Positions 2-61,362 of a stretch of DNA of 64,000 nucleotides are shown here, piece by piece (position 1 is the stretch's first letter; each line of letters opens with the position of its first letter). The notes beneath the pieces were generated by a model. The model had not been told where the DNA came from. It worked only from the letters and a program-made list of their open reading frames with translations, and ran no database searches. The position numbers were made by a program, and so were the translations under genes. The stretch is from assembly GCA_036338695.1 (NCBI GenBank), contig JAYZBQ010000076.1, forward strand, positions 930 to 64,929. The letters run 5' to 3'. Origin of the DNA: Myxococcota bacterium. Its GTDB lineage: Bacteria; Myxococcota; UBA4151.

Positions 2-427
2 CTCGAGGGGATTACGTCGTTCGCTAGCCCTTCGACCGTCCTGAGTCAGACGCAAGACGGTTACGCTGCGGGCTCGCTCGTCGGGGTCGAAATCGACGAA
101 GAGGGCGTCATGAACGCTCGCTACTCGAACGGGCGCACCTTCCAAGGCGGACGCGTGATCCTCGCCAAATTCAATTCGAAGGACGGGCTCCGGCGGGTGG
201 GCGAGAACCTCTTTGTCGAGAGTCAGGCGTCAGGGCCGGCGGCGCTCGCTGAGGCGGCGACAGGCGGTCGAGGCGTGGTGCACCAGGGGACGCTTGAGCA
301 AAGCAACGTCGACATCTCCGAAGAGTTTATCGACATGATCCGCTTTCAGCGCGCCTTTCAGGCGAACTCAAGGACGGTAACGACCACCGACGAGCTGTTG
401 GTGGAGGTCGTGAACCTCAAGCGCTAG
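2..427 (+). CDS. Flagellar hook/rod protein (FlgE/FlgG family), C-terminal fragment; gene starts upstream of the window
   Basis: Open frame from position 2 with no stop. Translation ...TQDGYAAGSLVGVEIDEEGVMNARYSNGRTFQGGRVILAKF...SNVDISEEFIDMIRFQRAFQANSRTVTTTDELLVEVVNLKR matches the conserved C-terminal DUF1078/flg_bbr_C region of FlgE/FlgG. FlgE ends ...LVNLR and FlgG ends ...LTQL, so this looks more like FlgE. Confidence 0.75.
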   Translation, partial: LEGITSFASPSTVLSQTQDGYAAGSLVGVEIDEEGVMNARYSNGRTFQGGRVILAKFNSKDGLRRVGENLFVESQASGPAALAEAATGGRGVVHQGTLEQSNVDISEEFIDMIRFQRAFQANSRTVTTTDELLVEVVNLKR

Positions 428-44393: not shown

Positions 44394-45875
44394 TTGTTTC
44401 CTTCGCTTCAGCATAATTTAAAGATCACCACGCAGCTGCGCATGACACCGCAGCTTCAGCAGGCGGTGAAGCTGTTGCAGTACAACCGCGCTGAGCTGGT
44501 CGAGTTCATCAACACCGAGATGCTTGAGAACCCAACGCTCGAGGAGCGACCGGTCGAAGAGCCTGCGAGTGACCCTGCCGAGGGGCAAACCTTCTCGCCG
44601 AGCGACGACAACAAACCCATTCACTCGGCCACGGCGCAGAGCGCTGAGCAGGCGAGCGACGCAGAGGCGGTCCACAGCACGCAGATCGATTGGAACCGGG
44701 TCGACCTGAACGATACCACGCACCGCTTTCAGGCGGTTCGACCCGTCGATGATTTGCCGGGGTATGACCAGACGCTGTCGCGCAGCGAGACGCTGACCGA
44801 GCATCTGAGCTGGCAGCTGCGTATGTTGCGTCTCGACGAGGGGGTCCTTGAGGCGGCCTTTGAGCTCGTCCACAGCCTCGATGAGAAGGGGTGGTTCTCG
44901 GAAGGAATTGACGGCTGGCAGCAGCACATCGCTCAGTCTGAACGGAGCCCTGAGCTGCTTGAGCGGGCGCGCGCTCAGCTGCTGCAGCTCGACCCGGTTG
45001 GTGTCGGCGCGCTCGACCTCAAAGAGTGCCTGCTCGTGCAGCTCCGGTCCTTAAATCTGGAACATAGCCACGCCTACCGCCTGGTCGATGAGCACCTTGA
45101 GCTGCTCGGTAGCCTCGACCTGCGCCAGGTCGCTCGGACCGTGGGCATCTCGGTCGACGAGCTCGAAGAGGCGAAGGCGACCATCAGCACGCTCGAGCCT
45201 CGCCCTGGGCGAGCCTTTATGAGCGATGACCTCGAGCGAAACCCCTTCGTGACGCCGGATGTTCACTTCTTCAAAGAGGGCGACGAGTGGGTGGTCCGTC
45301 TCAACGAGGACGGGATGCCTCGCCTGCGCGTCTCGAAGTACTATCAGCGCGCCTATGAACGCGGCGGGCTCACCCCGAAGGAGCGCGAGTACGTCATCGA
45401 CCGGTTGCGCCGTGCGGAGTGGGTGACCAAGTGCATCCTGCAGCGGCAATCGACGATTCGCAAAGTCTGTGAGAGCATTCTGAGGTTCCAAGGCGAGTTC
45501 TTCGAGCGCGGACCGAAGTACCTCAAACCGCTGGTCTTGCGCGACGTCGCAGATGACATCGAGGCACACGAATCGACGGTCTCACGGGTGACCTCGAACA
45601 AATATGCCGAGACCCCTCAGGGGCTTTTGCCGCTCAAGTATTTCTTCTCCGCAAGGCTCGCGAGCAGCTCGGGCGGAGGCGACGTCAGCGCAGAGGCTGT
45701 TCGACAGCGGATCGCCGGCATGATCAAGAGCGAAGACGTGTCCAAACCATTTAGTGACTCGCAGATCGTCAAGTTACTCAAGGCGGAGGGGATTGAGATC
45801 GCCCGCCGAACCGTTGCAAAATATCGAGAGCAGTTATTGATTCCCGCGGCAGGAAAGCGCCGGATTAGACGCTAA
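44394..45875 (+). CDS. rpoN: RNA polymerase sigma-54 factor RpoN
   Basis: N-terminal LKITTQLRMTPQLQQAVKLLQ and C-terminal RpoN box ARRTVAKYRE. TTG start with GAGGAG 6 nt upstream. Confidence 0.9.
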   Translation: MFPSLQHNLKITTQLRMTPQLQQAVKLLQYNRAELVEFINTEMLENPTLEERPVEEPASDPAEGQTFSPSDDNKPIHSATAQSAEQASDAEAVHSTQIDWNRVDLNDTTHRFQAVRPVDDLPGYDQTLSRSETLTEHLSWQLRMLRLDEGVLEAAFELVHSLDEKGWFSEGIDGWQQHIAQSERSPELLERARAQLLQLDPVGVGALDLKECLLVQLRSLNLEHSHAYRLVDEHLELLGSLDLRQVARTVGISVDELEEAKATISTLEPRPGRAFMSDDLERNPFVTPDVHFFKEGDEWVVRLNEDGMPRLRVSKYYQRAYERGGLTPKEREYVIDRLRRAEWVTKCILQRQSTIRKVCESILRFQGEFFERGPKYLKPLVLRDVADDIEAHESTVSRVTSNKYAETPQGLLPLKYFFSARLASSSGGGDVSAEAVRQRIAGMIKSEDVSKPFSDSQIVKLLKAEGIEIARRTVAKYREQLLIPAAGKRRIRR

Positions 45876-54088: not shown

Positions 54089-54820
54089 GTGTTGCGAATC
54101 AGAGGAGGCGCCGTGGTCTTTGGATTGTTTGGTAGCAAAGTAGAGCGACTCAAAAAGGCTGTTCGACAACGCTATGGACAGCATGAGCCGCGCAAAGACG
54201 CGATGATGCGTCTGCTTCAGATGGCGGATCTCGAGGCGTACCGCGCCGTCCTGAGCCGCTTTACGGTCAACTGTGACTCGCCACACTGGGATGAGAAGGA
54301 GAAGACCTGGCTCGCTGCGCGCTTGTTGGAGCGCCAGGGGGATGCGGCTCTTCTGCAAGCCCTGCAAGAGCTCTTGATGACCGGCGAGCGCCTCAACCAG
54401 GCGCTCGGAGTCGCCGAGCAGCTCATGAGCGCTGACGACTACCGAAGCTGGACCGAGCAGGCGTTCGAGCGACGTCTCGGAGACCATCGGGCGGTCGATG
54501 CTTGCGTCGAGCTGGTCGGAGCGCTTGGGCGACTCGGTGGCGACGCAGCGCTCAAAGCCGGTCTCGCGGCCATCGCTGACCGCACCGACGAGGTCATCTT
54601 GGAGGGCCTCAACGTTTTGGAGCGTTGCGAGGGCGAAGGGCTCGCCGCTGCGCTCTATGACCTCGCCCATGATGAACTGCAGATGCCGCGTGTGGTGAGG
54701 CGTGCCGGTCAAGCGCTCGTGGTGCTAGGCCTTGAAGATCCCAAAGCGCGCACCGAACTGCCGGAAGCGCTGGCTGAAGATTTTGTCATAAAGGGTGGCC
54801 GGTTGGCCGCAAGAACGTAG
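54089..54820 (+). CDS. Hypothetical HEAT-repeat protein
   Basis: Helical repeats with LLERQGDAALLQALQELL and LGRLGGDAALKAGLAAIA, consistent with PBS-lyase-type HEAT repeats. Confidence 0.4.
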   Translation: MLRIRGGAVVFGLFGSKVERLKKAVRQRYGQHEPRKDAMMRLLQMADLEAYRAVLSRFTVNCDSPHWDEKEKTWLAARLLERQGDAALLQALQELLMTGERLNQALGVAEQLMSADDYRSWTEQAFERRLGDHRAVDACVELVGALGRLGGDAALKAGLAAIADRTDEVILEGLNVLERCEGEGLAAALYDLAHDELQMPRVVRRAGQALVVLGLEDPKARTELPEALAEDFVIKGGRLAART

Positions 54821-54906: not shown

Positions 54907-56193
54907 TTGTCGATGAGCCAACTGATGAAACAGTTTTCTATTTCCTTTCTTGTACTCGCTGCGGCGAGTTGCACCAGTGAACCGATCACGAAGAGCTGGG
55001 TATTTGTCTCGAAGGCGCCCTCGGTTTCGACGCCCCTCGTGACCCAAGACCGCATCTTCTTCGGATCCGACGTTGGGTTGGACGCGATCAACCGTCTGGG
55101 CGGCTTCGTTTGGCGCCTTGATCGACAAGGCATGAACGTCGTGGGCGGTCCTGCTGCCTACGAAGACATCGTCTTGTTCGGGTCGACCAACTCGCAGTTT
55201 TACGCCGCATCTTATGATGGCCGGATGGTGTGGGAGTACACGGCGGGCGCGCGCATCAAGTCCGATGCGTTGACCGACGGAGACTCGGTCATCTTCTCGA
55301 GTTACGACGGGCATGTGTACAAGATGGCGGTCGAAGACAAAAAGATGCAGTGGATCTTCCCGAGCGAAGCGGCTGAGGAGCTTCCGGGCCCGCCGACTCA
55401 TCCAAAGGTCAAAGCCTACATCGCCGCGATGGCTGACTACTCCAAGAAGGTGGCTGAATGCGCCGCTCAGGCTGAGGCAGCTCAGGCGGAAGGCAAGGCG
55501 CCTGAGCAGCCGTGCGAAACGGGTGACGAGCCGGCTGCACCTTCGTCAGAGCAGGGCGCTGAGTGGGAGTGGCCGCCAGCCGATTTTGCATACTCCTCGC
55601 CCATGCGTGTTGGGAACTTGATCATCTTGGGGAACATGGACTGGAACGTCTATGCGCTGAACGCCGACACGGGCGAGCTGGTCTGGCGCACACGTCTTAA
55701 TGGGACCGTGACGTCGAGCGCAGTAGCGGGCGACGGCGTGATCTACATCGGCAGCAACGGACGACTCGGTGGCAAGAGCCCAGAGGACGGACGGCTCTAC
55801 GCACTCGACGCTAAGACCGGGAAAATCCTTAACAACTTCCAGGCGAAGAACGAGGTTAACTCTTCGGTGCGCGTCAACGGTGACTCGTTGTACTTCGGTG
55901 ACGTCGCCGGGAACATGTACTGTCTGGACGCCAAGACGCTCAAAGAGAAGTGGTCGTTCAAAACCAACGGGCCGATCCGAGGGCGCCCTGCGATCTACAA
56001 GAATCTCGTCTTTATTGGTTCGGGCGCTGGCGACAACCAAATGTACGCGTTACGTCAGGACGACGGGAAGGTGTTTTGGAAGTACAAGACGGGCGGTAAA
56101 ATCGAATCGGATCCTGTGATCAGTGGTGATGAGCTGTTCTTCACGAGCCATGACCGCAGGTTGTACGCCTTCAAGATTCGAAAGACGCCCTGA
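54907..56193 (+). CDS. PQQ-like beta-propeller repeat lipoprotein
   Basis: Lipobox VLAAASCTSEP. Six or more WxY/Gx(V/L)YxG blade motifs (DGRMVWEY, DGHVYKM, TGELVWRT, DGRLYALDAKTGKIL, NMYCLDAKTLKEKWSF, GKVFWKY). Contains an Ala/Glu/Gln-rich insert. Confidence 0.65.
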   Translation: MSMSQLMKQFSISFLVLAAASCTSEPITKSWVFVSKAPSVSTPLVTQDRIFFGSDVGLDAINRLGGFVWRLDRQGMNVVGGPAAYEDIVLFGSTNSQFYAASYDGRMVWEYTAGARIKSDALTDGDSVIFSSYDGHVYKMAVEDKKMQWIFPSEAAEELPGPPTHPKVKAYIAAMADYSKKVAECAAQAEAAQAEGKAPEQPCETGDEPAAPSSEQGAEWEWPPADFAYSSPMRVGNLIILGNMDWNVYALNADTGELVWRTRLNGTVTSSAVAGDGVIYIGSNGRLGGKSPEDGRLYALDAKTGKILNNFQAKNEVNSSVRVNGDSLYFGDVAGNMYCLDAKTLKEKWSFKTNGPIRGRPAIYKNLVFIGSGAGDNQMYALRQDDGKVFWKYKTGGKIESDPVISGDELFFTSHDRRLYAFKIRKTP

Positions 56194-56252: not shown

Positions 56253-57011
56253 GTGGATATTGCGACAGTCCTAGGAGCCCTCGTAGCGTTTGGCTTGGTC
56301 GGTGGCTCGATCGCCATGGGCGGCGGCACGGCCTTTATCGACCCAGCCTCCGCGATGATCGTGATCGGCGGCACGACCGGCGCGATCATGCTCGCGACCT
56401 CGATGGAGAAGTTTCAGGCGCTGGGTAAGGTCTTTAGCAAGGCGCTGACGGTGACGCCGGTGCCGATGGTTGAGACCGCCACCAACATGGTCGAATATGC
56501 GCAGATTGCGCGCCGAGAGGGCATGTTGAGCCTGGAGCAGGCGCTGGCGAGCGCCGACCCGTTCATGGCGAACGGGATCCAGCTCGCCATCGATGGGATC
56601 GCGCCAGATGTCGTCGAGGACATCATGTACATCGATCTAGACCGGATGAAGGCGCGCCATAAGGCGGGCAATGAGCTCATGAGCCTTGGCGCCACCTTCG
56701 CACCGGCGATGGGTTTGATTGGTACGCTCATCGGTTTGGTTCAGATGCTCCAAAATATGTCGGATCCGAACACCATCGGTCCTGCGATGGCGGTGGCTTT
56801 GCTCACGACCTTTTATGGCGCATTGCTCGCCAACCTCGTCTTTGTTCCCATCTCGAGTAAGCTTAAGATGCGCTCGACCGCTGAGATCGAATACCGCGAG
56901 ATGATGATGGAGGGCGTGATGGCGATCGCCAAAGGCGAGAGCCCGCGTATGGTTGAGAAGAAGCTCAACGCCATGTTGCCGCCTGATGATCGTCTGTCGC
57001 TCTTTGACTGA
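56253..57011 (+). CDS. motA: Flagellar stator protein MotA/PomA
   Basis: 252 aa with four TM segments; MotA/TolQ/ExbB family core (ATFAPAMGLIGTLIGLVQM...TTFYGALLANLVFVPI). GTG start. Confidence 0.85.
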   Translation: MDIATVLGALVAFGLVGGSIAMGGGTAFIDPASAMIVIGGTTGAIMLATSMEKFQALGKVFSKALTVTPVPMVETATNMVEYAQIARREGMLSLEQALASADPFMANGIQLAIDGIAPDVVEDIMYIDLDRMKARHKAGNELMSLGATFAPAMGLIGTLIGLVQMLQNMSDPNTIGPAMAVALLTTFYGALLANLVFVPISSKLKMRSTAEIEYREMMMEGVMAIAKGESPRMVEKKLNAMLPPDDRLSLFD

Positions 57012-57706
57012 TGGGTAAACGCCGAGCTCCCGAACCCGAAGAGCCCGAAGCGGACGGCTTCGTCGTCATGATGACCTCGCTCTCGATGATCATGTTGGCG
57101 TTTTTTATCGTGCTCAACACGATGGCGACCATTACCCAGGTCAAGGTCATGAAGGCGCTCGATTCGTTGTATGGATCGTTCGGCCCACTCAGCGGCGGAA
57201 AGTCCGTTGAGCCCGGCCCCCTTTCGATCAAAGAGAACGTCACCGAAGAGAAAAAGCCGGACAAGGAGAAGGTCTATAAGTCGATGCTCCAGCGCGCCGA
57301 CCTTGACCCCTCGATCGAACTGCTTGAGCGCGACGACAGCTTCACGGTCGCCCTCCAGGACGATGTGCTGTTTGAAACGGGGCTCAATCAGATCAGCCCA
57401 CGCATGTTTTCGTCCCTCAACGCAGTGGCTCAGGTCATCAAAGAGGTGAACATGCCGGTACGGATTGTTGGCTACTCGGACGCAACGCCTGCCGTCGACG
57501 GTGAGACCAATTTGATGCTTAGCCTCAAGCGCGCCGTGTTGGTGAAGAACTATCTGATGTATGCTGGGCGTGTTCCGGCCGACCTGATGATCGTCGAAGG
57601 GCGAGGCGAGGAGCTCTCGCCGCACTTCTTGTCAAAAGCCGGCGATGAGATTGCGGTGAGCGATGATCGGCGGCGGCGCGTGGAGTTGGTGTGGGGGCTC
57701 GACTAG
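57011..57706 (+). CDS. MotB-like stator protein paralogue lacking the conserved plug/channel Asp
   Basis: TM segment FVVMMTSLSMIMLAFFIVL aligns with the MotB YADFMTAMMAFF region but has Ser where the proton-binding Asp belongs. C-terminal OmpA-like peptidoglycan-binding domain (RIVGYSDATP...NLMLSLKRA). Confidence 0.7.
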   Translation: MGKRRAPEPEEPEADGFVVMMTSLSMIMLAFFIVLNTMATITQVKVMKALDSLYGSFGPLSGGKSVEPGPLSIKENVTEEKKPDKEKVYKSMLQRADLDPSIELLERDDSFTVALQDDVLFETGLNQISPRMFSSLNAVAQVIKEVNMPVRIVGYSDATPAVDGETNLMLSLKRAVLVKNYLMYAGRVPADLMIVEGRGEELSPHFLSKAGDEIAVSDDRRRRVELVWGLD

Positions 57707-57709
57707 TCC

Positions 57710-58444
57710 ATGGGTGATAAGAAGAAGGGCGGCGGCGGTGATGACGGACCTGGGATCGATCCGAACGGCTGGATGATCACCTTCTCTGACCTGCTCACCT
57801 TGATGCTCACGTTCTTTGTGCTCCTGTTCTCAATGAGCAGTCTCGATGCGAAGTCCCTGAAAGAGCTGACCGAGACGGAGGCGATGTCAGGCGGCGATGG
57901 TGTGCTCGAGATCGGTCAGCCCGAGAAGGTTCAGGCGGTGGACGCCAAGGACAAGCCAACCGTCACCCCTCGAAAGATGGCCTCTGTCGCCGAGGATGTG
58001 GCGCAATATTTGCGTATGGTTGGGCGTGGCGTCTCCGACGAGCGGCGACGTCTCTTGGAGCAGCGGATTCGTGAGCGCGGGAAGCAAGAGAAGGTTGAGG
58101 TGACCTTTTTGCCGAACGGTGTGCAGATCGCCTTTGAAGGGGACGATGAGTTGATGGCCCAAGGGCAGATCAGTCGCGGCGCACAGGATCAGCTCCGCGT
58201 CGTTGGTGACGCCGCTGTCGATTCGGGAGCGCGCGTGCGCGTGGAGACGGAGGCTCGTGGCGATGACCTCAACGCCTGGATCGCTGCCACGGAGCGCGCC
58301 TCAGCCATCAGCGAGTTTATACGCCGTCATAGCGGTATTGCGAAGAAGCGAAATCGGTTAGGGGTTGCACCAAAGCCTGCTGATGGGAGCGGGCGACGCG
58401 TCCGCATGGTGCTTGAGATGCCGGACGCAAAGGAGGAGCGATGA
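57710..58444 (+). CDS. motB: MotB-like stator protein with conserved Asp
   Basis: WMITFSDLLTLMLTFFVLLF keeps the canonical Asp. The C-terminal region is only weakly OmpA-like. Confidence 0.65.
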   Translation: MGDKKKGGGGDDGPGIDPNGWMITFSDLLTLMLTFFVLLFSMSSLDAKSLKELTETEAMSGGDGVLEIGQPEKVQAVDAKDKPTVTPRKMASVAEDVAQYLRMVGRGVSDERRRLLEQRIRERGKQEKVEVTFLPNGVQIAFEGDDELMAQGQISRGAQDQLRVVGDAAVDSGARVRVETEARGDDLNAWIAATERASAISEFIRRHSGIAKKRNRLGVAPKPADGSGRRVRMVLEMPDAKEER

Positions 58445-58947
58445 GCGAAGAAGAGCTGGAACAGCAGCCGTCAGGTGGTGGGAACAACAAAATTATCCTC
58501 ATTTTGGTGAGCGTCAATATCGTGGCGGTGCTCGGCGTGTTGGTCTACCTGATCACTTCGCAAGGCGCTGCCCCCGCCGCCGTTGTGGTGGGCGGTGAGG
58601 CGATCGCCAAGCCGGCGCAAGAAGAGCCGGGCGCAGGCCCGCCGTGGAAGATGGACCCGCTGATCGTCAACCTGCGGGTGCCGGAGGGTACGCGCTACTT
58701 GAAGGTGGCGCTCGAGTTTGAGCTGACGGGCGAGAAGTTCAAAGAGCTCGCTGAGGATCGCAAGGGGCGGATCAAGGATCAAGTGATCGAGTTCCTAAGC
58801 GATCTAACGGTCGACGATGTGGTCGGCAGTGACAACAAGCAATACATCAAAGAGCGGCTCCTGACCCGGCTGAACCACAGCCTCGAAGGCGAGGCGGGCG
58901 GTCCGGTGTTTCGGCGCGTCTTCTTCCCTGAGTTTCTGGTGCAGTAG
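58441..58947 (+). CDS. fliL: Flagellar basal-body-associated protein FliL
   Basis: Single TM then PLIVNLRVPEGTRYLKVALEFEL...KERLLTRLN, the FliL signature. Confidence 0.8.
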   Translation: MSEEELEQQPSGGGNNKIILILVSVNIVAVLGVLVYLITSQGAAPAAVVVGGEAIAKPAQEEPGAGPPWKMDPLIVNLRVPEGTRYLKVALEFELTGEKFKELAEDRKGRIKDQVIEFLSDLTVDDVVGSDNKQYIKERLLTRLNHSLEGEAGGPVFRRVFFPEFLVQ

Positions 58948-60249: not shown

Positions 60250-61362
60250 ATGCTAACGCTCGTTTTTATCGCCTCGCTGGCGCAGCCGCAGCCGGGTCAG
60301 AAGCTGTTGCGTGCGGACCTTGTTCGCAGCCCAAAGGGCTCGAACTTGGTCCTCGAGTTCGCCAAACCGATCAAGCGCACCAGCGTCCCCATCGTCCCCG
60401 CCGGTCGGCGCCTCGTGCTCCACCTGCCCGGTCCCGTGAGCACGCGGCTCGCAGGCCAGCGTCAAGGGATGGGCGCAGTCTCGTCGGTTACGGCGCGTCG
60501 CGACCGCGTGACGCTGCAGCTCAACCGGCTCGCAAGACCCTTCGCAGACCGAGCGATCGTTCGGGCTAAGGGCACGACCTGGCGTCTGAAAATGGCGGAT
60601 CCGACGGTCGAGCGCGACCTCGCCGATATGTTGCTCGGGACCGCCAAAGTGAAAGAGCGTAAACCTTTTGACGCGCTCACTGAGTCAGCTAAGCTCAGCG
60701 AAGCCGCGCAAGAGAAGGTGAACGCCGAAGAGGTCATCGCAGAAGAGCCAGCCAAAGCGGCAGCCGGCCTCGCGGCCGTCGCCGCCGCTGCGCGCGGTGA
60801 GGCGCCACCTGCTGCCCCCACGAATCCACAAACACCCGGCGCCGGCGCGCCGGCGCCCATTGAACCCTCGGGCGACCTCGGTTCCACTGTGCGCGTGGTC
60901 GGCGGGATCGGCCTGGTGCTTATCGGCCTGCTCGGTTGGGTGGCATGGCGCCGCCGGCAGACGCCGATGGAGGAAGCCTTTGGTCTCAGGGTCGTGTCAC
61001 GGGCTAAACTCGACACCAAAAGCTCGGTCGCTGTGCTTGAGGTCGGCGGAGCCGTGCTGATCATCGGGCTGAGTGATCAAGGACCGAGGCTGCTCGCCCG
61101 CCTTGATGACGGTCGAACCATGGAGGACGACGACCAAGGAGCTCAAGAGGTCGAGCGGCTGCGCGCCCTGGTCGGGAAGAATCCGGCAGATCGCTTGGGC
61201 GCGTGGGTCACGGCAGCGCAGGGCGGTCGCCCCGAGCCGGCGCAATCGGCGGCGCAGCCTTTACCCGCTGAGCCGGTCGCTGTCTCGACCCCGGCAGGGC
61301 ACAACGAGCGTGCGGACCTTCAGCGACGCTTAGCCGAGATCCGACGGGTATGCTCGGACTAA
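60250..61362 (+). CDS. FliO-like flagellar biosynthesis protein with about 200-aa N-terminal extension
   Basis: C-terminal third (TM VVGGIGLVLIGLLGWVAW followed by LRVVSRAKLDTKSSVAVLEVGGAVLIIGLSDQGPRLLARLDD) matches the FliO core, and its position between fliN and fliP agrees. The N-terminus has a signal-like start, a beta-rich domain and an Ala/Pro-rich linker. Confidence 0.55.
   Translation: MLTLVFIASLAQPQPGQKLLRADLVRSPKGSNLVLEFAKPIKRTSVPIVPAGRRLVLHLPGPVSTRLAGQRQGMGAVSSVTARRDRVTLQLNRLARPFADRAIVRAKGTTWRLKMADPTVERDLADMLLGTAKVKERKPFDALTESAKLSEAAQEKVNAEEVIAEEPAKAAAGLAAVAAAARGEAPPAAPTNPQTPGAGAPAPIEPSGDLGSTVRVVGGIGLVLIGLLGWVAWRRRQTPMEEAFGLRVVSRAKLDTKSSVAVLEVGGAVLIIGLSDQGPRLLARLDDGRTMEDDDQGAQEVERLRALVGKNPADRLGAWVTAAQGGRPEPAQSAAQPLPAEPVAVSTPAGHNERADLQRRLAEIRRVCSD

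What the first reader, a model, noticed from the sequence alone, without database searches (positions are those of the whole stretch)
56253..58444. One MotA followed by two MotB paralogues, the first lacking the essential channel Asp
Canonical stators are MotA4-5/MotB2 with an invariant Asp in the MotB TM helix (E. coli D32). Here motA is followed by a MotB-like gene whose aligned residue is Ser (…MMTSLSMIMLAFF…). Only the second MotB-like gene keeps the Asp (…ITFSDLLTLMLTFF…). The first paralogue still has a good OmpA-like peptidoglycan-binding domain. It could be a non-conducting scaffold or plug-like stator subunit, or part of a heteromeric stator. This is reminiscent of but distinct from MotX/MotY and Agl/Tol-like systems.
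Basis: partly seen in the sequence, partly recalled or inferred. Interest (0 to 1): 0.5.

Follow-up and report, generated by a model that had tools for sequence, protein, structure and literature searches.

The report
Flagellar stator with Asp-less MotB partner
This flagellar operon encodes one MotA and two MotB-type proteins, of which only the second keeps the ion-carrying aspartate; the same trio is conserved in thousands of database proteins from at least three bacterial phyla and I found no paper on it, so it may be a natural motor unit that runs on one aspartate instead of two.

Summary
motA (56253-57011), B1 (57011-57706) and B2 (57710-58444) are real, tightly packed genes in a flagellar operon of an uncultured marine Myxococcota bacterium. 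B1 Ser23 aligns with the channel Asp of solved MotBs and E. coli D32; B2 keeps Asp27.

- B2 has no recognisable OmpA sequence motif. Its C-terminus only folds like MotB-C, and the G-x-T-D aspartate is missing. B1 keeps every canonical peptidoglycan-binding residue. The two proteins are therefore reciprocally degenerate.
- B1 is not a local oddity. At least 111 clusters at 50% identity lack the Asp (Ser, Ala, Thr or Gly instead). They are labelled Myxococcota, Deltaproteobacteria/Desulfobacterales and Nitrospiria, and annotated only as "MotB" or "OmpA family".

In 78 metagenome loci found by the B' transmembrane motif alone:
- 68 have motA immediately upstream;
- 62 of the 65 with DNA downstream have an Asp-bearing MotB next;
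- fliL follows that MotB in 44 of the 46 with enough DNA.

B1 is under purifying selection as strong as motA (dN/dS about 0.05).

Best reading, inferred and not shown: a heteromeric MotA5-B1-B2 stator with one ion site. I found no description in the literature. I file it as a new variant of a known kind.

The parts
56253..57011 (+). motA: stator A subunit (252 aa), the only A-type gene in the locus
   Evidence: Pfam MotA_ExbB 99.9 bits plus MotA_N. Best solved relatives are C. sporogenes MotA 6ysf (E 1.8e-58) and PomA 8bri (E 5.6e-49); the TM4 'TTFYG' threonines are kept. The stop codon overlaps the B1 start (TGATG).
57011..57706 (+). B1 (B'): MotB paralogue without the channel Asp (231 aa)
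   Evidence: MotB_plug 26.7 bits plus OmpA 40.8 bits. No NCBIfam model reaches its cut-off. The AF2 model (pLDDT 79.8) shows TM helix 16-39, second helix 43-57, disordered linker, then an OmpA-like domain. Homologues are conserved, dN/dS about 0.05.
57056..57127 (+). B1 transmembrane helix (residues 16-39)
   Evidence: AF2 helix 16-39. In the wider family this stretch is as conserved as in Asp-type MotBs (I82 L88 L98 A81 F96 F99 I95 % at +4..+10) and has no acidic residue from -4 to +14.
57077..57079 (+). B1 Ser23 codon (TCG) at the position of the MotB channel Asp
   Evidence: Aligned to the Asp of 6ysf and 9lu9 MotB by HMMER and to E. coli D32 by MAFFT. The position is S/T/A in all 12 homologues.
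57368..57613 (+). B1 OmpA-like peptidoglycan-binding domain with the full canonical motif (G154 Y S D157 ... N167 xx L170 S171 xx R174 A)
   Evidence: Pfam OmpA covers residues 120-201. G154, D157, N167, L170, S171, R174 and R221-R223 are invariant across the 13 sequences of the alignment. Key-residue table.
57710..58444 (+). B2: Asp-bearing MotB (244 aa) with a degenerate C-terminal domain
   Evidence: MotB_plug 58.1 bits and no OmpA hit. All 23 orthologue clusters carry only PF13677. The start lies 3 nt after the B1 stop, and the stop overlaps the fliL start (ATGA).
57743..57874 (+). B2 TM helix plus plug (residues 12-55); Asp27 codon GAC at 57788-57790
   Evidence: Residues 21-46 (WM.TFSDLLTLMLTFFVLLFSMSSLD) are invariant apart from position 23 (I/L) in 15 sequences down to 40% identity. 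Aligned to the MotB TM and plug of 6ysf, 9luc and PomB 8brd.
57986..58417 (+). B2 C-terminal domain: OmpA-like fold without the canonical peptidoglycan-binding motif
   Evidence: The AF2 model (pLDDT 66.6; 70-82 in this domain) has helix-helix-strand-strand-helix-helix-strand-helix-strand-strand topology. Foldseek against PDB matches PA0833-PD, Salmonella MotB-C, PomB-C and MotS-C at E 9e-7 to 2e-5, with 13-21% identity. hhalign against the B1 family puts a gap opposite G-Y-S-D. The loop Asp and N-x-x-L-S are not conserved among orthologues.
58441..58947 (+). fliL, immediately downstream and translationally coupled; followed by fliM, fliN, fliO, fliP, fliQ, fliR
   Evidence: Pfam FliL 70.1 bits and FliM 136.7 bits; FliN and FliO. 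fliP, fliQ and fliR are assigned from the ORF list and position, matching the order seen with Pfam labels in L006 and L090.

Best explanation
**Proposal.** B1 and B2 are the two halves of a subfunctionalised MotB. They assemble together inside one MotA pentamer as a heteromeric MotA5-B1-B2 stator unit.

**Division of labour in this model.**
- B2 supplies the single ion-binding Asp27 and the canonical plug helix.
- B1 supplies a non-conducting TM helix that completes the two-helix axle. In this Myxococcota lineage it also supplies the only canonical peptidoglycan anchor.

Ion flow would then use one of the two half-channels. The neutral small residue of B1 (Ser/Ala/Thr/Gly) never has to be protonated to pass the MotA ring.

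**Shown.**
- The sequence facts.
- The conserved motA-B'-B-fliL order.
- Purifying selection on B1.
- The reciprocal degeneration of B1 and B2.

**Inferred.**
- Co-assembly of B1 and B2 in one unit.
- 1:1 stoichiometry.
- Operation with a single ion site.
For: 1. **Near-obligate adjacency.** In 78 metagenome loci retrieved only through the B' TM motif:
   - 68 have motA upstream (4 more are cut by the contig end);
   - 62 of the 65 with DNA downstream have an Asp-type MotB next, and one of the 3 exceptions (L020) is an ORF-overlap artefact;
   - fliL follows that MotB in 44 of 46.
   - The same order is seen in four Myxococcota genomes, a 7.2-Mb Desulfobacterales genome, and Deltaproteobacteria-like and Nitrospiria-like contigs.
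2. **Translational coupling.** Start and stop codons overlap or abut in the window (TGATG; 3-nt gap; ATGA), and there is one motA for two B genes.
3. **A TM helix built for packing.** The B' TM helix keeps the MotB packing pattern (L+1, L+6, FF at +8/+9, [IV]+10, L+12) at 88-99% conservation. That is far more than a simple membrane anchor needs. It has lost the polar face that its Asp-type partners keep (T-3 95%, D0, T+7 90%).
4. **Reciprocal degeneration in this lineage.** B1 has no Asp but a full peptidoglycan-binding motif. B2 has the Asp and plug but no Pfam OmpA hit in any of 23 orthologue clusters, and the G-x-T-D Asp is absent. By established knowledge of MotB, an Asp-bearing MotB with no wall anchor cannot deliver torque alone.
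5. **Complementarity across lineages.** When the Asp-type partner has lost the D/R/R key residues, B' tends to keep them: 10 of 14 against 7 of 22 clusters at 50% identity (Fisher p 0.02-0.07 depending on clustering).
6. **Single origin.** All 75 B' sequences fall in one NJ clade that holds only one Asp-type sequence, and each sequence's nearest neighbour is of its own type. This fits one old duplication followed by co-inheritance.
7. **Selection.** B1 dN/dS is about 0.05, the same as motA.
Against: - There is no physical evidence of any interaction.
- Current models of the 5:2 stator require alternating protonation of both Asp residues (bioRxiv 10.64898/2026.04.14.718414, abstract; review PMC9389320).
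- From my own knowledge, not checked here: E. coli MotB D32 substitutions are non-functional and dominant-negative (Zhou et al. 1998). Mixed units may therefore jam rather than run.
- The peptidoglycan-motif complementarity is statistically weak and the loci are not phylogenetically independent.
- In 13 of the 52 scan loci with both proteins complete, both keep a full anchor motif, so anchoring alone cannot explain why B' exists.
- The B2 C-terminal domain still has an OmpA-like fold and an Arg or Lys at the R position. It may bind the wall or another partner by itself.
Confidence: 0.45

Rival explanations
1. **Static scaffold.** B1 forms its own homodimers, either inside a MotA pentamer as a non-conducting, non-rotating MotA5(B1)2 unit or on its own. 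These are anchored to peptidoglycan around the motor and act as a periplasmic or membrane scaffold that positions and holds the working MotA5(B2)2 units. The hold could be through contacts between OmpA-like domains. Functionally this resembles the MotY/T-ring or the PflB/FlgY spokes.
For: - B1 has an intact peptidoglycan-binding motif and no ion site.
- B2 lacks the motif and would need something to hold it.
- OmpA-like domains of MotB dimerise, so a B1-C/B2-C contact between units is plausible (inference from the solved MotB-C dimers listed).
- The conserved periplasmic motif after the B' TM helix (ALGSLxG[ST]FG) could be a docking site.
- Many motors have added accessory anchor proteins (PMC12054838 and PMC12222027, abstracts).
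Against: - A mere scaffold would not need a TM helix conserved at 88-99% in the MotB packing positions.
- In 38 of the 52 scan loci with both proteins complete, the Asp-type partner has its own full anchor motif, so it needs no holder.
- MotA5(B1)2 units would compete with working units for MotA and for rotor sites.
- B' genes are almost never found away from motA and an Asp-type MotB. This fits a subunit as well as it fits an accessory.
Confidence: 0.28
2. **Regulatory dummy subunit.** B1 competes with B2 for MotA. It produces inactive or slower units that tune motor speed, ion consumption or stator occupancy, a built-in brake or economy mode.
For: - Asp-less MotB mutants in E. coli are dominant-negative (own knowledge, not checked here), so an Asp-less paralogue could act in this way.
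- PilZ and GGDEF genes lie next to motA-B'-B in two loci, which suggests regulated stators.
- The taxa involved (Desulfobacterales, Nitrospiria) include energy-limited anaerobes (labels; the physiology is my inference).
Against: - The genes are translationally coupled in one operon with B1 ahead of B2. That gives fixed co-expression, not a regulated ratio.
- A brake would not explain why B2 lost its own wall anchor in this lineage.
- Conservation of the pair across at least three phyla with the same gene order points to a structural role.
Confidence: 0.12
3. **Alternative ion site.** B1 still conducts through a different residue: the moderately conserved Asp at -8 in the Ser/Ala/Thr type, the Glu at -5 in the Gly type, or the Ser/Thr hydroxyl for Na+. 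Both B proteins would then be ordinary alternative stator subunits, as proposed for Aquifex MotB1 and MotB2.
For: - Asp at -8 is present in 44% of Ser/Ala/Thr-type sequences, and Glu at -5 in 81% of Gly-type sequences.
- motA scores best against the PomA and MotP models, though below their cut-offs.
- Aquifex has a motA-motB1-motB2 operon in which either B works (PMC4525482).
Against: - The -8 Asp lies before the predicted helix, at the cytoplasmic end, and is absent in more than half of the family.
- Every ion-driven MotB, PomB or MotS studied so far keeps the Asp at position 0. Solved examples are aligned.
- The polar face is replaced by hydrophobic residues in B'.
- The two Aquifex MotBs have 97% identical TM regions and differ only in the periplasmic part. 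That is the opposite pattern to the one seen here.
Confidence: 0.05
4. **Decaying duplicate.** B1 is a degenerating copy of motB, or an annotation or assembly artefact.
For: Loss of an essential residue is what a pseudogene would show.
Against: - The frame is intact, and there are 84 invariant columns across homologues down to 50% identity.
- dN/dS is about 0.05.
- At least 111 Asp-less clusters at 50% identity exist.
- Synteny is conserved across phyla.
Confidence: 0.01

Closest known systems
Canonical MotA5MotB2 / PomA5PomB2 / MotP-MotS flagellar stator units (solved: 6ysf, 6ykm, 8bri, 9lu9)
   Same: - Same A subunit family; motA is 1.8e-58 to 6ysf.
- Same B architecture in both paralogues: TM helix, a helix after it, a linker, then an OmpA-like fold.
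- Same operon position before fliL-fliM-fliN.
   Different: - There are two different B genes per motA.
- One B lacks the Asp and the polar TM face.
- In this lineage the other B lacks the canonical peptidoglycan-binding motif.
- Neither B reaches the cut-off of any NCBIfam MotB, MotS or MotD model.
Aquifex aeolicus motA-motB1-motB2 operon (Takekawa et al. 2015, PMC4525482)
   Same: One motA is followed by two motB genes in one operon.
   Different: [quoted passage not shown] Only the periplasmic parts differ (23% identity).
- Here the TM regions differ at the functional residue and the proteins look complementary rather than alternative.
AglR-AglQ-AglS gliding motor of Myxococcus (TolQ/TolR family) and other 5:2 motors with two B-type genes, e.g. 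the TPH-vWA pairs next to TolQ-like genes (PMC12204202)
   Same: - One A-type gene has two different B-type partners.
- Whether AglQ and AglS form hetero- or homodimers is an open question (PMC9389320).
- TPH-vWA genes occur 'predominantly in heterologous pairs'.
   Different: - Those B-type proteins belong to the TolR/ExbD or vWA classes without an OmpA domain, and they are not flagellar.
- The TPH-vWA proteins are reported to contain the conserved Asp, one per monomer. From my own knowledge, AglQ and AglS also both have it.
- B1 and B2 are MotB-family proteins by Pfam.
MotY / MotX T-ring, and PflB/FlgY-type periplasmic stator scaffolds
   Same: An OmpA-like, wall-bound, non-conducting protein is associated with stators. 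This would match B1 under the scaffold hypothesis.
   Different: - MotY is a soluble periplasmic protein with its own N-terminal domain and no MotB-type TM helix (own knowledge).
- B1 has a MotB_plug match and a conserved MotB-like TM helix, and it is encoded between motA and motB.

Membership tests
MotB/PomB flagellar stator B subunit: tested on B1 (57011-57706) | N-terminal single TM helix of MotB type (Pfam MotB_plug PF13677) | tested here: met
   26.7 bits against a cut-off of 24, residues 5-57. AF2 helix 16-39. The FF, L and [IV] packing positions are conserved.
MotB/PomB flagellar stator B subunit: tested on B1 | Invariant ion-binding Asp in the TM helix (E. coli D32) | tested here: not met
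   Ser23 aligns to the Asp in HMMER and MAFFT alignments. The position is S/T/A in all homologues. There is no acidic residue from -4 to +14 in 199 family members.
MotB/PomB flagellar stator B subunit: tested on B1 | Amphipathic plug helix directly after the TM helix | tested here: inconclusive
   A helix is predicted at residues 43-57. Its sequence (KVMKALDSLYGSFG) follows a family-specific motif, not the canonical plug. Its function was not testable.
MotB/PomB flagellar stator B subunit: tested on B1 | C-terminal OmpA-like peptidoglycan-binding domain with conserved D, N-x-x-L-S-x-x-R-A and RR | tested here: met
   Pfam OmpA 40.8 bits. G154, D157, N167, L170, S171, R174 and R221-223 are invariant. 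Binding itself was not tested.
MotB/PomB flagellar stator B subunit: tested on B2 (57710-58444) | MotB-type TM helix with the Asp, plus the plug | tested here: met
   MotB_plug 58.1 bits. Asp27 aligns with the Asp of 6ysf, 9luc and 8brd MotB/PomB. Residues 21-46 are invariant apart from position 23 (I/L).
MotB/PomB flagellar stator B subunit: tested on B2 | C-terminal OmpA-like peptidoglycan-binding domain with the conserved motif | tested here: inconclusive
   - The fold is met: Foldseek matches MotB-C, PomB-C and MotS-C at E 9e-7 to 2e-5.
- The sequence motif is not met: no Pfam OmpA hit in B2 or any of 23 orthologue clusters, G-x-T-D is absent, and N-x-x-L-S is not conserved.
MotB/PomB flagellar stator B subunit: both proteins | Encoded next to motA in a flagellar gene cluster | tested here: met
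   The order is motA-B1-B2-fliL-fliM-fliN-fliO-fliP-fliQ-fliR. It is conserved in L001-L004 and in most of the 78 metagenome loci with a B' gene.
Aquifex-type alternative MotB1/MotB2 | Two MotBs with near-identical Asp-bearing TM regions and divergent periplasmic domains | tested here: not met
   The TM regions of B1 and B2 differ at the Asp and at the polar face. The Aquifex description comes from PMC4525482.
TolR/ExbD/AglQ-AglS class of 5:2 motor B subunits | ExbD/TolR family domain (PF02472), no OmpA domain | tested here: not met
   Pfam and NCBIfam scans of B1 and B2 return MotB_plug, OmpA and MotB-type models only. TolQ appears only as a very weak hit for motA.
MotY (T-ring) | Soluble periplasmic protein with a MotY N-terminal domain plus an OmpA-like domain, no TM helix in the MotA pore | tested here: not met
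   B1 has a MotB-type TM helix and no MotY_N hit.

The most novel reading that the evidence does not exclude
A widespread natural class of flagellar stator units (Myxococcota, Desulfobacterota, Nitrospirota) may be built as MotA5-B'-B, with a heterodimeric axle and only one ion-carrying aspartate. If so, the 5:2 rotary mechanism does not need two alternating Asp sites, and the ion cost per revolution may be halved. In some lineages, including this one, ion coupling and wall anchoring have been split between the two axle proteins.
Probability: 0.4. Interest if true: 0.85.

Novelty: new variant of a known kind. Interest (0 to 1): 0.66.

Why it matters
**Mechanism.** The accepted mechanism for MotAB, and by extension ExbBD, TolQR, ZorAB and GldLM, has two identical axle subunits whose aspartates are protonated in alternation. 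A conserved natural stator with one Asp-bearing and one Asp-less axle subunit would be a ready-made asymmetric motor. It would make three questions directly testable:
- Is one ion site enough?
- What are the step size and the ion-to-rotation ratio?
- How is the wall anchor shared between the two subunits?

**Annotation and phylogeny.** Thousands of database entries labelled 'flagellar motor protein MotB' or 'OmpA family protein' in Desulfobacterota, Myxococcota and Nitrospirota genomes are not equivalent to MotB. Surveys that take 'the gene directly downstream of motA' as the B subunit (method of PMC12505986) would pick the Asp-less paralogue in these genomes.

**If B' proves to be a scaffold or a brake.** It would still be a new, widely distributed motor accessory derived from MotB itself.

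Tried and rejected
- **Shifted alignment.** I looked for one that would put Asp or Glu at the B1 channel site. It is rejected: HMMER, MAFFT and hmmalign agree, and no acidic residue occurs from -4 to +14.
- **Pseudogene.** Rejected.
- **Species-genome scan.** A species-level taxonomic census of the wide family was therefore not possible.
- **Organism names.** Two cluster look-ups gave few names: Deltaproteobacteria and Nitrospiria, and none.
- **Curated families.** NCBIfam has no model that claims B', B1, B2 or the partner MotBs; all hits are below cut-off.
- **Literature.** Nine full-text searches found no description of an Asp-less MotB paralogue or a motA-B'-B triad.
  - The nearest items are Aquifex MotB1/B2, the AglQ/S stoichiometry question and TPH-vWA pairs.
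  - The library holds open-access papers only, so absence is not proof.
- **Complementarity of peptidoglycan motifs across lineages.** The association is only weak (p 0.02-0.07). I do not rest the case on it.
- **Family size.** The count of 7946 hits at E <= 1e-10 cannot be read as 7946 Asp-less proteins. Only the top 120 were listed and checked (113 new ones, all Asp-less), and canonical MotBs also match the OmpA part of the profile.
- **Phylogeny.** The NJ tree has no bootstrap, and the B' set was partly selected by its N-terminal motif.
- **Multimer modelling.** A model of MotA5 with B1 and B2 could not be run with the tools offered.
Full report
**1. The observation**

- motA, 56253-57011, 252 aa;
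- B1, 57011-57706, 231 aa;
- B2, 57710-58444, 244 aa.

They are packed as one translational unit. The motA stop overlaps the B1 start (TGATG). B2 starts 3 nt after the B1 stop. The B2 stop overlaps the fliL start (ATGA). Downstream come fliL, fliM, fliN, fliO, fliP, fliQ and fliR. No terminator-like site lies between 54089 and 59200 on the + strand. The closest database proteins are from uncultured marine Myxococcota/Myxococcales MAGs.

Pfam confirms the identities:
- motA: MotA_ExbB 99.9 bits plus MotA_N;
- B1: MotB_plug 26.7 bits (cut-off 24) plus OmpA 40.8 bits;
- B2: MotB_plug 58.1 bits and nothing else.

motA is an ordinary flagellar stator A subunit. It matches C. sporogenes MotA 6ysf at E 1.8e-58 and PomA 8bri at 5.6e-49, and it keeps the TM4 'TTFYG' threonines.

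**2. The Asp-to-Ser substitution is real**

- HMMER alignments of B1 to solved MotBs (6ysf; the 9lu9 chimera) put B1 Ser23 (TCG, 57077-57079) opposite the channel Asp.
- The same searches put B2 Asp27 (GAC, 57788-57790) on it.
- A 142-sequence MAFFT alignment gives the same column.
- No shifted alignment can rescue an acidic residue. In 199 distinct Ser/Ala/Thr-type TM windows, acidic residues are 0% at every position from -4 to +14. The nearest is an Asp at -8 (44%), which lies before the predicted helix.

**3. B1 is not a pseudogene**

- Twelve homologues down to 50% identity carry S, T or A at the site, never D or E. They share 84 invariant columns, including the whole OmpA motif.
- dN/dS against the orthologues in L001 and L002 is 0.055 and 0.051. 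motA gives 0.055 and 0.034. dS is above 1, so these values are rough.
- The AF2 model (pLDDT 79.8) has the full MotB architecture: TM helix 16-39, a second helix 43-57, a disordered linker, then an OmpA-like domain.

**4.

- B2 and all 23 of its orthologue clusters carry only PF13677. More distant MotBs in the same search carry PF13677 plus PF00691.
- The TM-plus-plug segment (residues 21-46) is invariant apart from position 23 (I/L) over 15 sequences down to 40% identity.
- The C-terminal half still folds like MotB-C. The AF2 model has pLDDT 70-82 in that domain. Foldseek matches PA0833-PD, Salmonella MotB-C, PomB-C and MotS-C at E 9e-7 to 2e-5, with only 13-21% identity.
- Profile-profile alignment of the B1 and B2 families (hhalign probability 90.7%, E 1.2e-6) leaves a gap in B2 opposite the G-Y-S-D of B1.
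- The loop Asp residues and the N-x-x-L-S motif are not conserved among B2 orthologues. The Arg is R or K.

In this lineage the ion site therefore sits on one protein and the canonical wall-binding motif on the other.

**5. B1 belongs to a large, apparently unnamed family**

- A profile of the B1 family searched against 1.84 billion representatives gave 444 proteins at E <= 1e-10.
- Of the 139 full-length proteins among the best 150, 111 lack the Asp (A 52, S 50, T 7, and one each of G, N, Q) and 26 have it. One is N-terminally truncated and has a gap at the site.
All 113 new proteins among its top 120 are Asp-less (G 88, S 19, A 6).
- Source names are only 'flagellar motor protein MotB', 'chemotaxis protein MotB' or 'OmpA family protein'. 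The labelled taxa are Myxococcota, Deltaproteobacteria, Desulfobacterales and Nitrospiria.
- No NCBIfam model reaches its cut-off for B' or for the partner MotBs.
- The family signature is F-x-V-[LM]-F-T-[SA]-L-S-x-I-L-L-A-F-F-I-L-L-N-S...A-L-G-S-L-x-G-[ST]-F-G.
- A Desulfobacterales subfamily has Gly at the site, keeps Trp at -6 and has a conserved Glu at -5.

**6. The gene order is conserved**

The order motA-B'-B(Asp) is seen in the following loci; all except L008 and L089 also have fliL directly after B(Asp):
- all four species genomes that hold a B1 orthologue;
- a 7.2-Mb Desulfobacterales chromosome (L005);
- flgE-motA-B'-B-fliL-fliM...flhB contigs (L006, L090);
- a Nitrospiria-like contig (L089);
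- a contig with a PilZ gene nearby (L008).

For an unbiased count I scanned metagenome contigs with the TM pattern LL[AS]FFI[LVM][LM]N alone and classified the neighbours with local HMMs. Of the 80 loci, 78 hold a B' gene (channel residue S 54, A 12, T 11, G 1).
- motA is immediately upstream in 68. Four more are cut by the contig end.
- An Asp-type MotB is immediately downstream in 62. Thirteen are cut by the contig end. Three are scored 'other', one of which (L020) is an ORF-overlap artefact that does have the Asp-type gene.
- fliL follows in 44 of the 46 with enough DNA.

In an NJ tree all 75 B' sequences fall in one clade that contains a single Asp-type sequence, and every sequence's nearest neighbour is of its own type. 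There is no bootstrap, and the B' set was partly selected by motif. The result fits one old duplication followed by co-inheritance.

**7. More than the Asp has changed in the TM helix**

| Position | Asp-type partners | Ser/Ala/Thr-type B' |
|---|---|---|
| -3 | T (95%) | L or M |
| 0 | D (100%) | S, A or T |
| +3 | T (59%) | I, L or M |
| +7 | T (90%) | A |

These positions lie on one helical face. The packing positions stay at 88-99% in both types: L+1, L+6, F+8, F+9, [IV]+10 and L+12. A helix that only anchored the protein in the membrane would not be held this tightly. I infer that it still packs in a specific protein environment, most simply the MotA pore next to the partner helix.

**8. 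Peptidoglycan-binding residues across the family**

Using the D of G-x-T-D, the R of R-A and the first R of N-R-R as the test, the 52 scan loci with both proteins complete split as follows:

| B' | Asp-type B | Loci |
|---|---|---|
| canonical | canonical | 13 |
| degenerate | canonical | 25 |
| canonical | degenerate | 10 |
| degenerate | degenerate | 4 |

The window's Myxococcota lineage (L001-L004) shows the 'B' canonical, Asp-type B degenerate' pattern but is not among these 52 scan loci.

After clustering at 50-90% identity (L001-L008 included), B' is more often canonical when the partner is not: 10 of 14 against 7 of 22 at 50% identity. Fisher p is 0.02-0.07. This is suggestive only, because the loci are related.

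**9. Mechanism**

The best-supported reading (confidence about 0.45) is a heteromeric MotA5-B1-B2 unit. B2 carries the only ion site and the plug. B1 completes the axle and, here, provides the wall anchor. The steps of the argument are:
- one motA for two coupled B genes (shown);
- near-obligate co-occurrence (shown);
- a MotB-like, highly conserved but apolar TM helix in B' (shown);
- reciprocal degeneration in this lineage (shown);
- an Asp-bearing MotB without an anchor cannot deliver torque alone (established knowledge);
- therefore B1 and B2 act in one complex (inferred).

One physical rationale is my own speculation. In the rotary model a charged Asp blocks rotation until it is protonated. 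A permanently neutral small residue would never block. A one-Asp unit could then turn with one ion per two 36-degree steps.

Arguments against:
- Current models require alternating protonation of both Asp residues.
- E. coli D32 mutants are dominant-negative (own knowledge, not checked here).
- No interaction data exist.

Rivals:
- a static scaffold of B1 homodimers that holds B2-type units (0.28);
- a dummy or brake subunit (0.12);
- an alternative ion site (0.05);
- a pseudogene (0.01, refuted).

**10. Comparison with known systems**

- Both proteins are MotB-family by architecture and context. B1 fails the defining Asp test. B2 fails the sequence test for the peptidoglycan motif.
- The Aquifex motA-motB1-motB2 operon is the only published one-A-two-B flagellar case I found. 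There the TM regions are 97% identical and each TM region supports motility with MotA in chimeric form (PMC4525482). That is the opposite pattern.
- AglRQS and the TPH-vWA pairs show that two different B-type genes per A gene occur in other 5:2 motors. Their stoichiometry is unresolved and the TPH-vWA proteins are reported to retain the Asp.
- The broad MotAB phylogeny paper does not mention Asp-less B subunits. It took the gene directly downstream of motA as 'B' (PMC12505986).
- Nine full-text searches found no description of this family. Subscription-only papers are not covered.

**11. Verdict**

- Novelty: a new variant of a known kind, that is, a conserved and widespread stator gene set with an Asp-less MotB paralogue, most likely a heteromeric single-Asp stator.
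- Interest is 0.66. A motor specialist would find a natural one-Asp stator surprising, and it makes the two-site question directly testable. The key claim of co-assembly is still an inference.

Noticed in passing
window 54089-54820 and 54907-56193: Two genes sit directly upstream of motA with no terminator-like site in between: a 243-aa protein with no Pfam hit, and a 428-aa BamB/PQQ-type beta-propeller with a lipoprotein-like N-terminus. Both occupy the same place in all four Myxococcota genomes (L001-L004). They are absent from the Desulfobacterota-type loci, where flgE or a sigma-54 activator precedes motA. They may be a lineage-specific periplasmic motor accessory.
   Followed up: partly
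window 60250-61362: The FliO homologue is 370 aa, but the FliO Pfam match covers only residues 230-300. The long N-terminal extension is also present in L001-L004.
   Followed up: no
L005 6001-6744 (CP070771.1) and proteins P0251-P0340: A Desulfobacterales subfamily of the Asp-less paralogue has Gly at the channel position. It keeps the canonical Trp at -6 and has a conserved Glu at -5 (81% of 69 distinct sequences). It is unclear whether this Glu is a displaced ion site.
   Followed up: partly
L089 2163-4209 and L008 7243-7644: c-di-GMP genes lie beside the motA-B'-B triad outside a full flagellar operon: GGDEF plus PilZ directly upstream of motA in the Nitrospiria-like locus, and PilZ downstream in L008. 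This hints at c-di-GMP control of these stators.
   Followed up: no
window 110-427 and 44394-45875: The window begins with the C-terminal end of a flagellar rod/hook-family protein (Flg_bbr_C). A second flagellar cluster therefore lies about 55 kb upstream of this one. rpoN (sigma-54) lies at 44394-45875, about 10 kb upstream of the operon.
   Followed up: no
L007 6793-7767 versus L008 5018-5992: The same Asp-bearing partner gene was called as a 267-aa N-terminally truncated product on one contig and as the full 324-aa protein on another. Precomputed gene calls can therefore hide the MotB_plug part of the partner gene.
   Followed up: yes
L087 2395-4777: This is the one locus where the order seems reversed (motA, then Asp-type B, then Asp-less B), and both proteins have degenerate peptidoglycan-binding residues. 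It may be a separate duplication or a distant relative.
   Followed up: no
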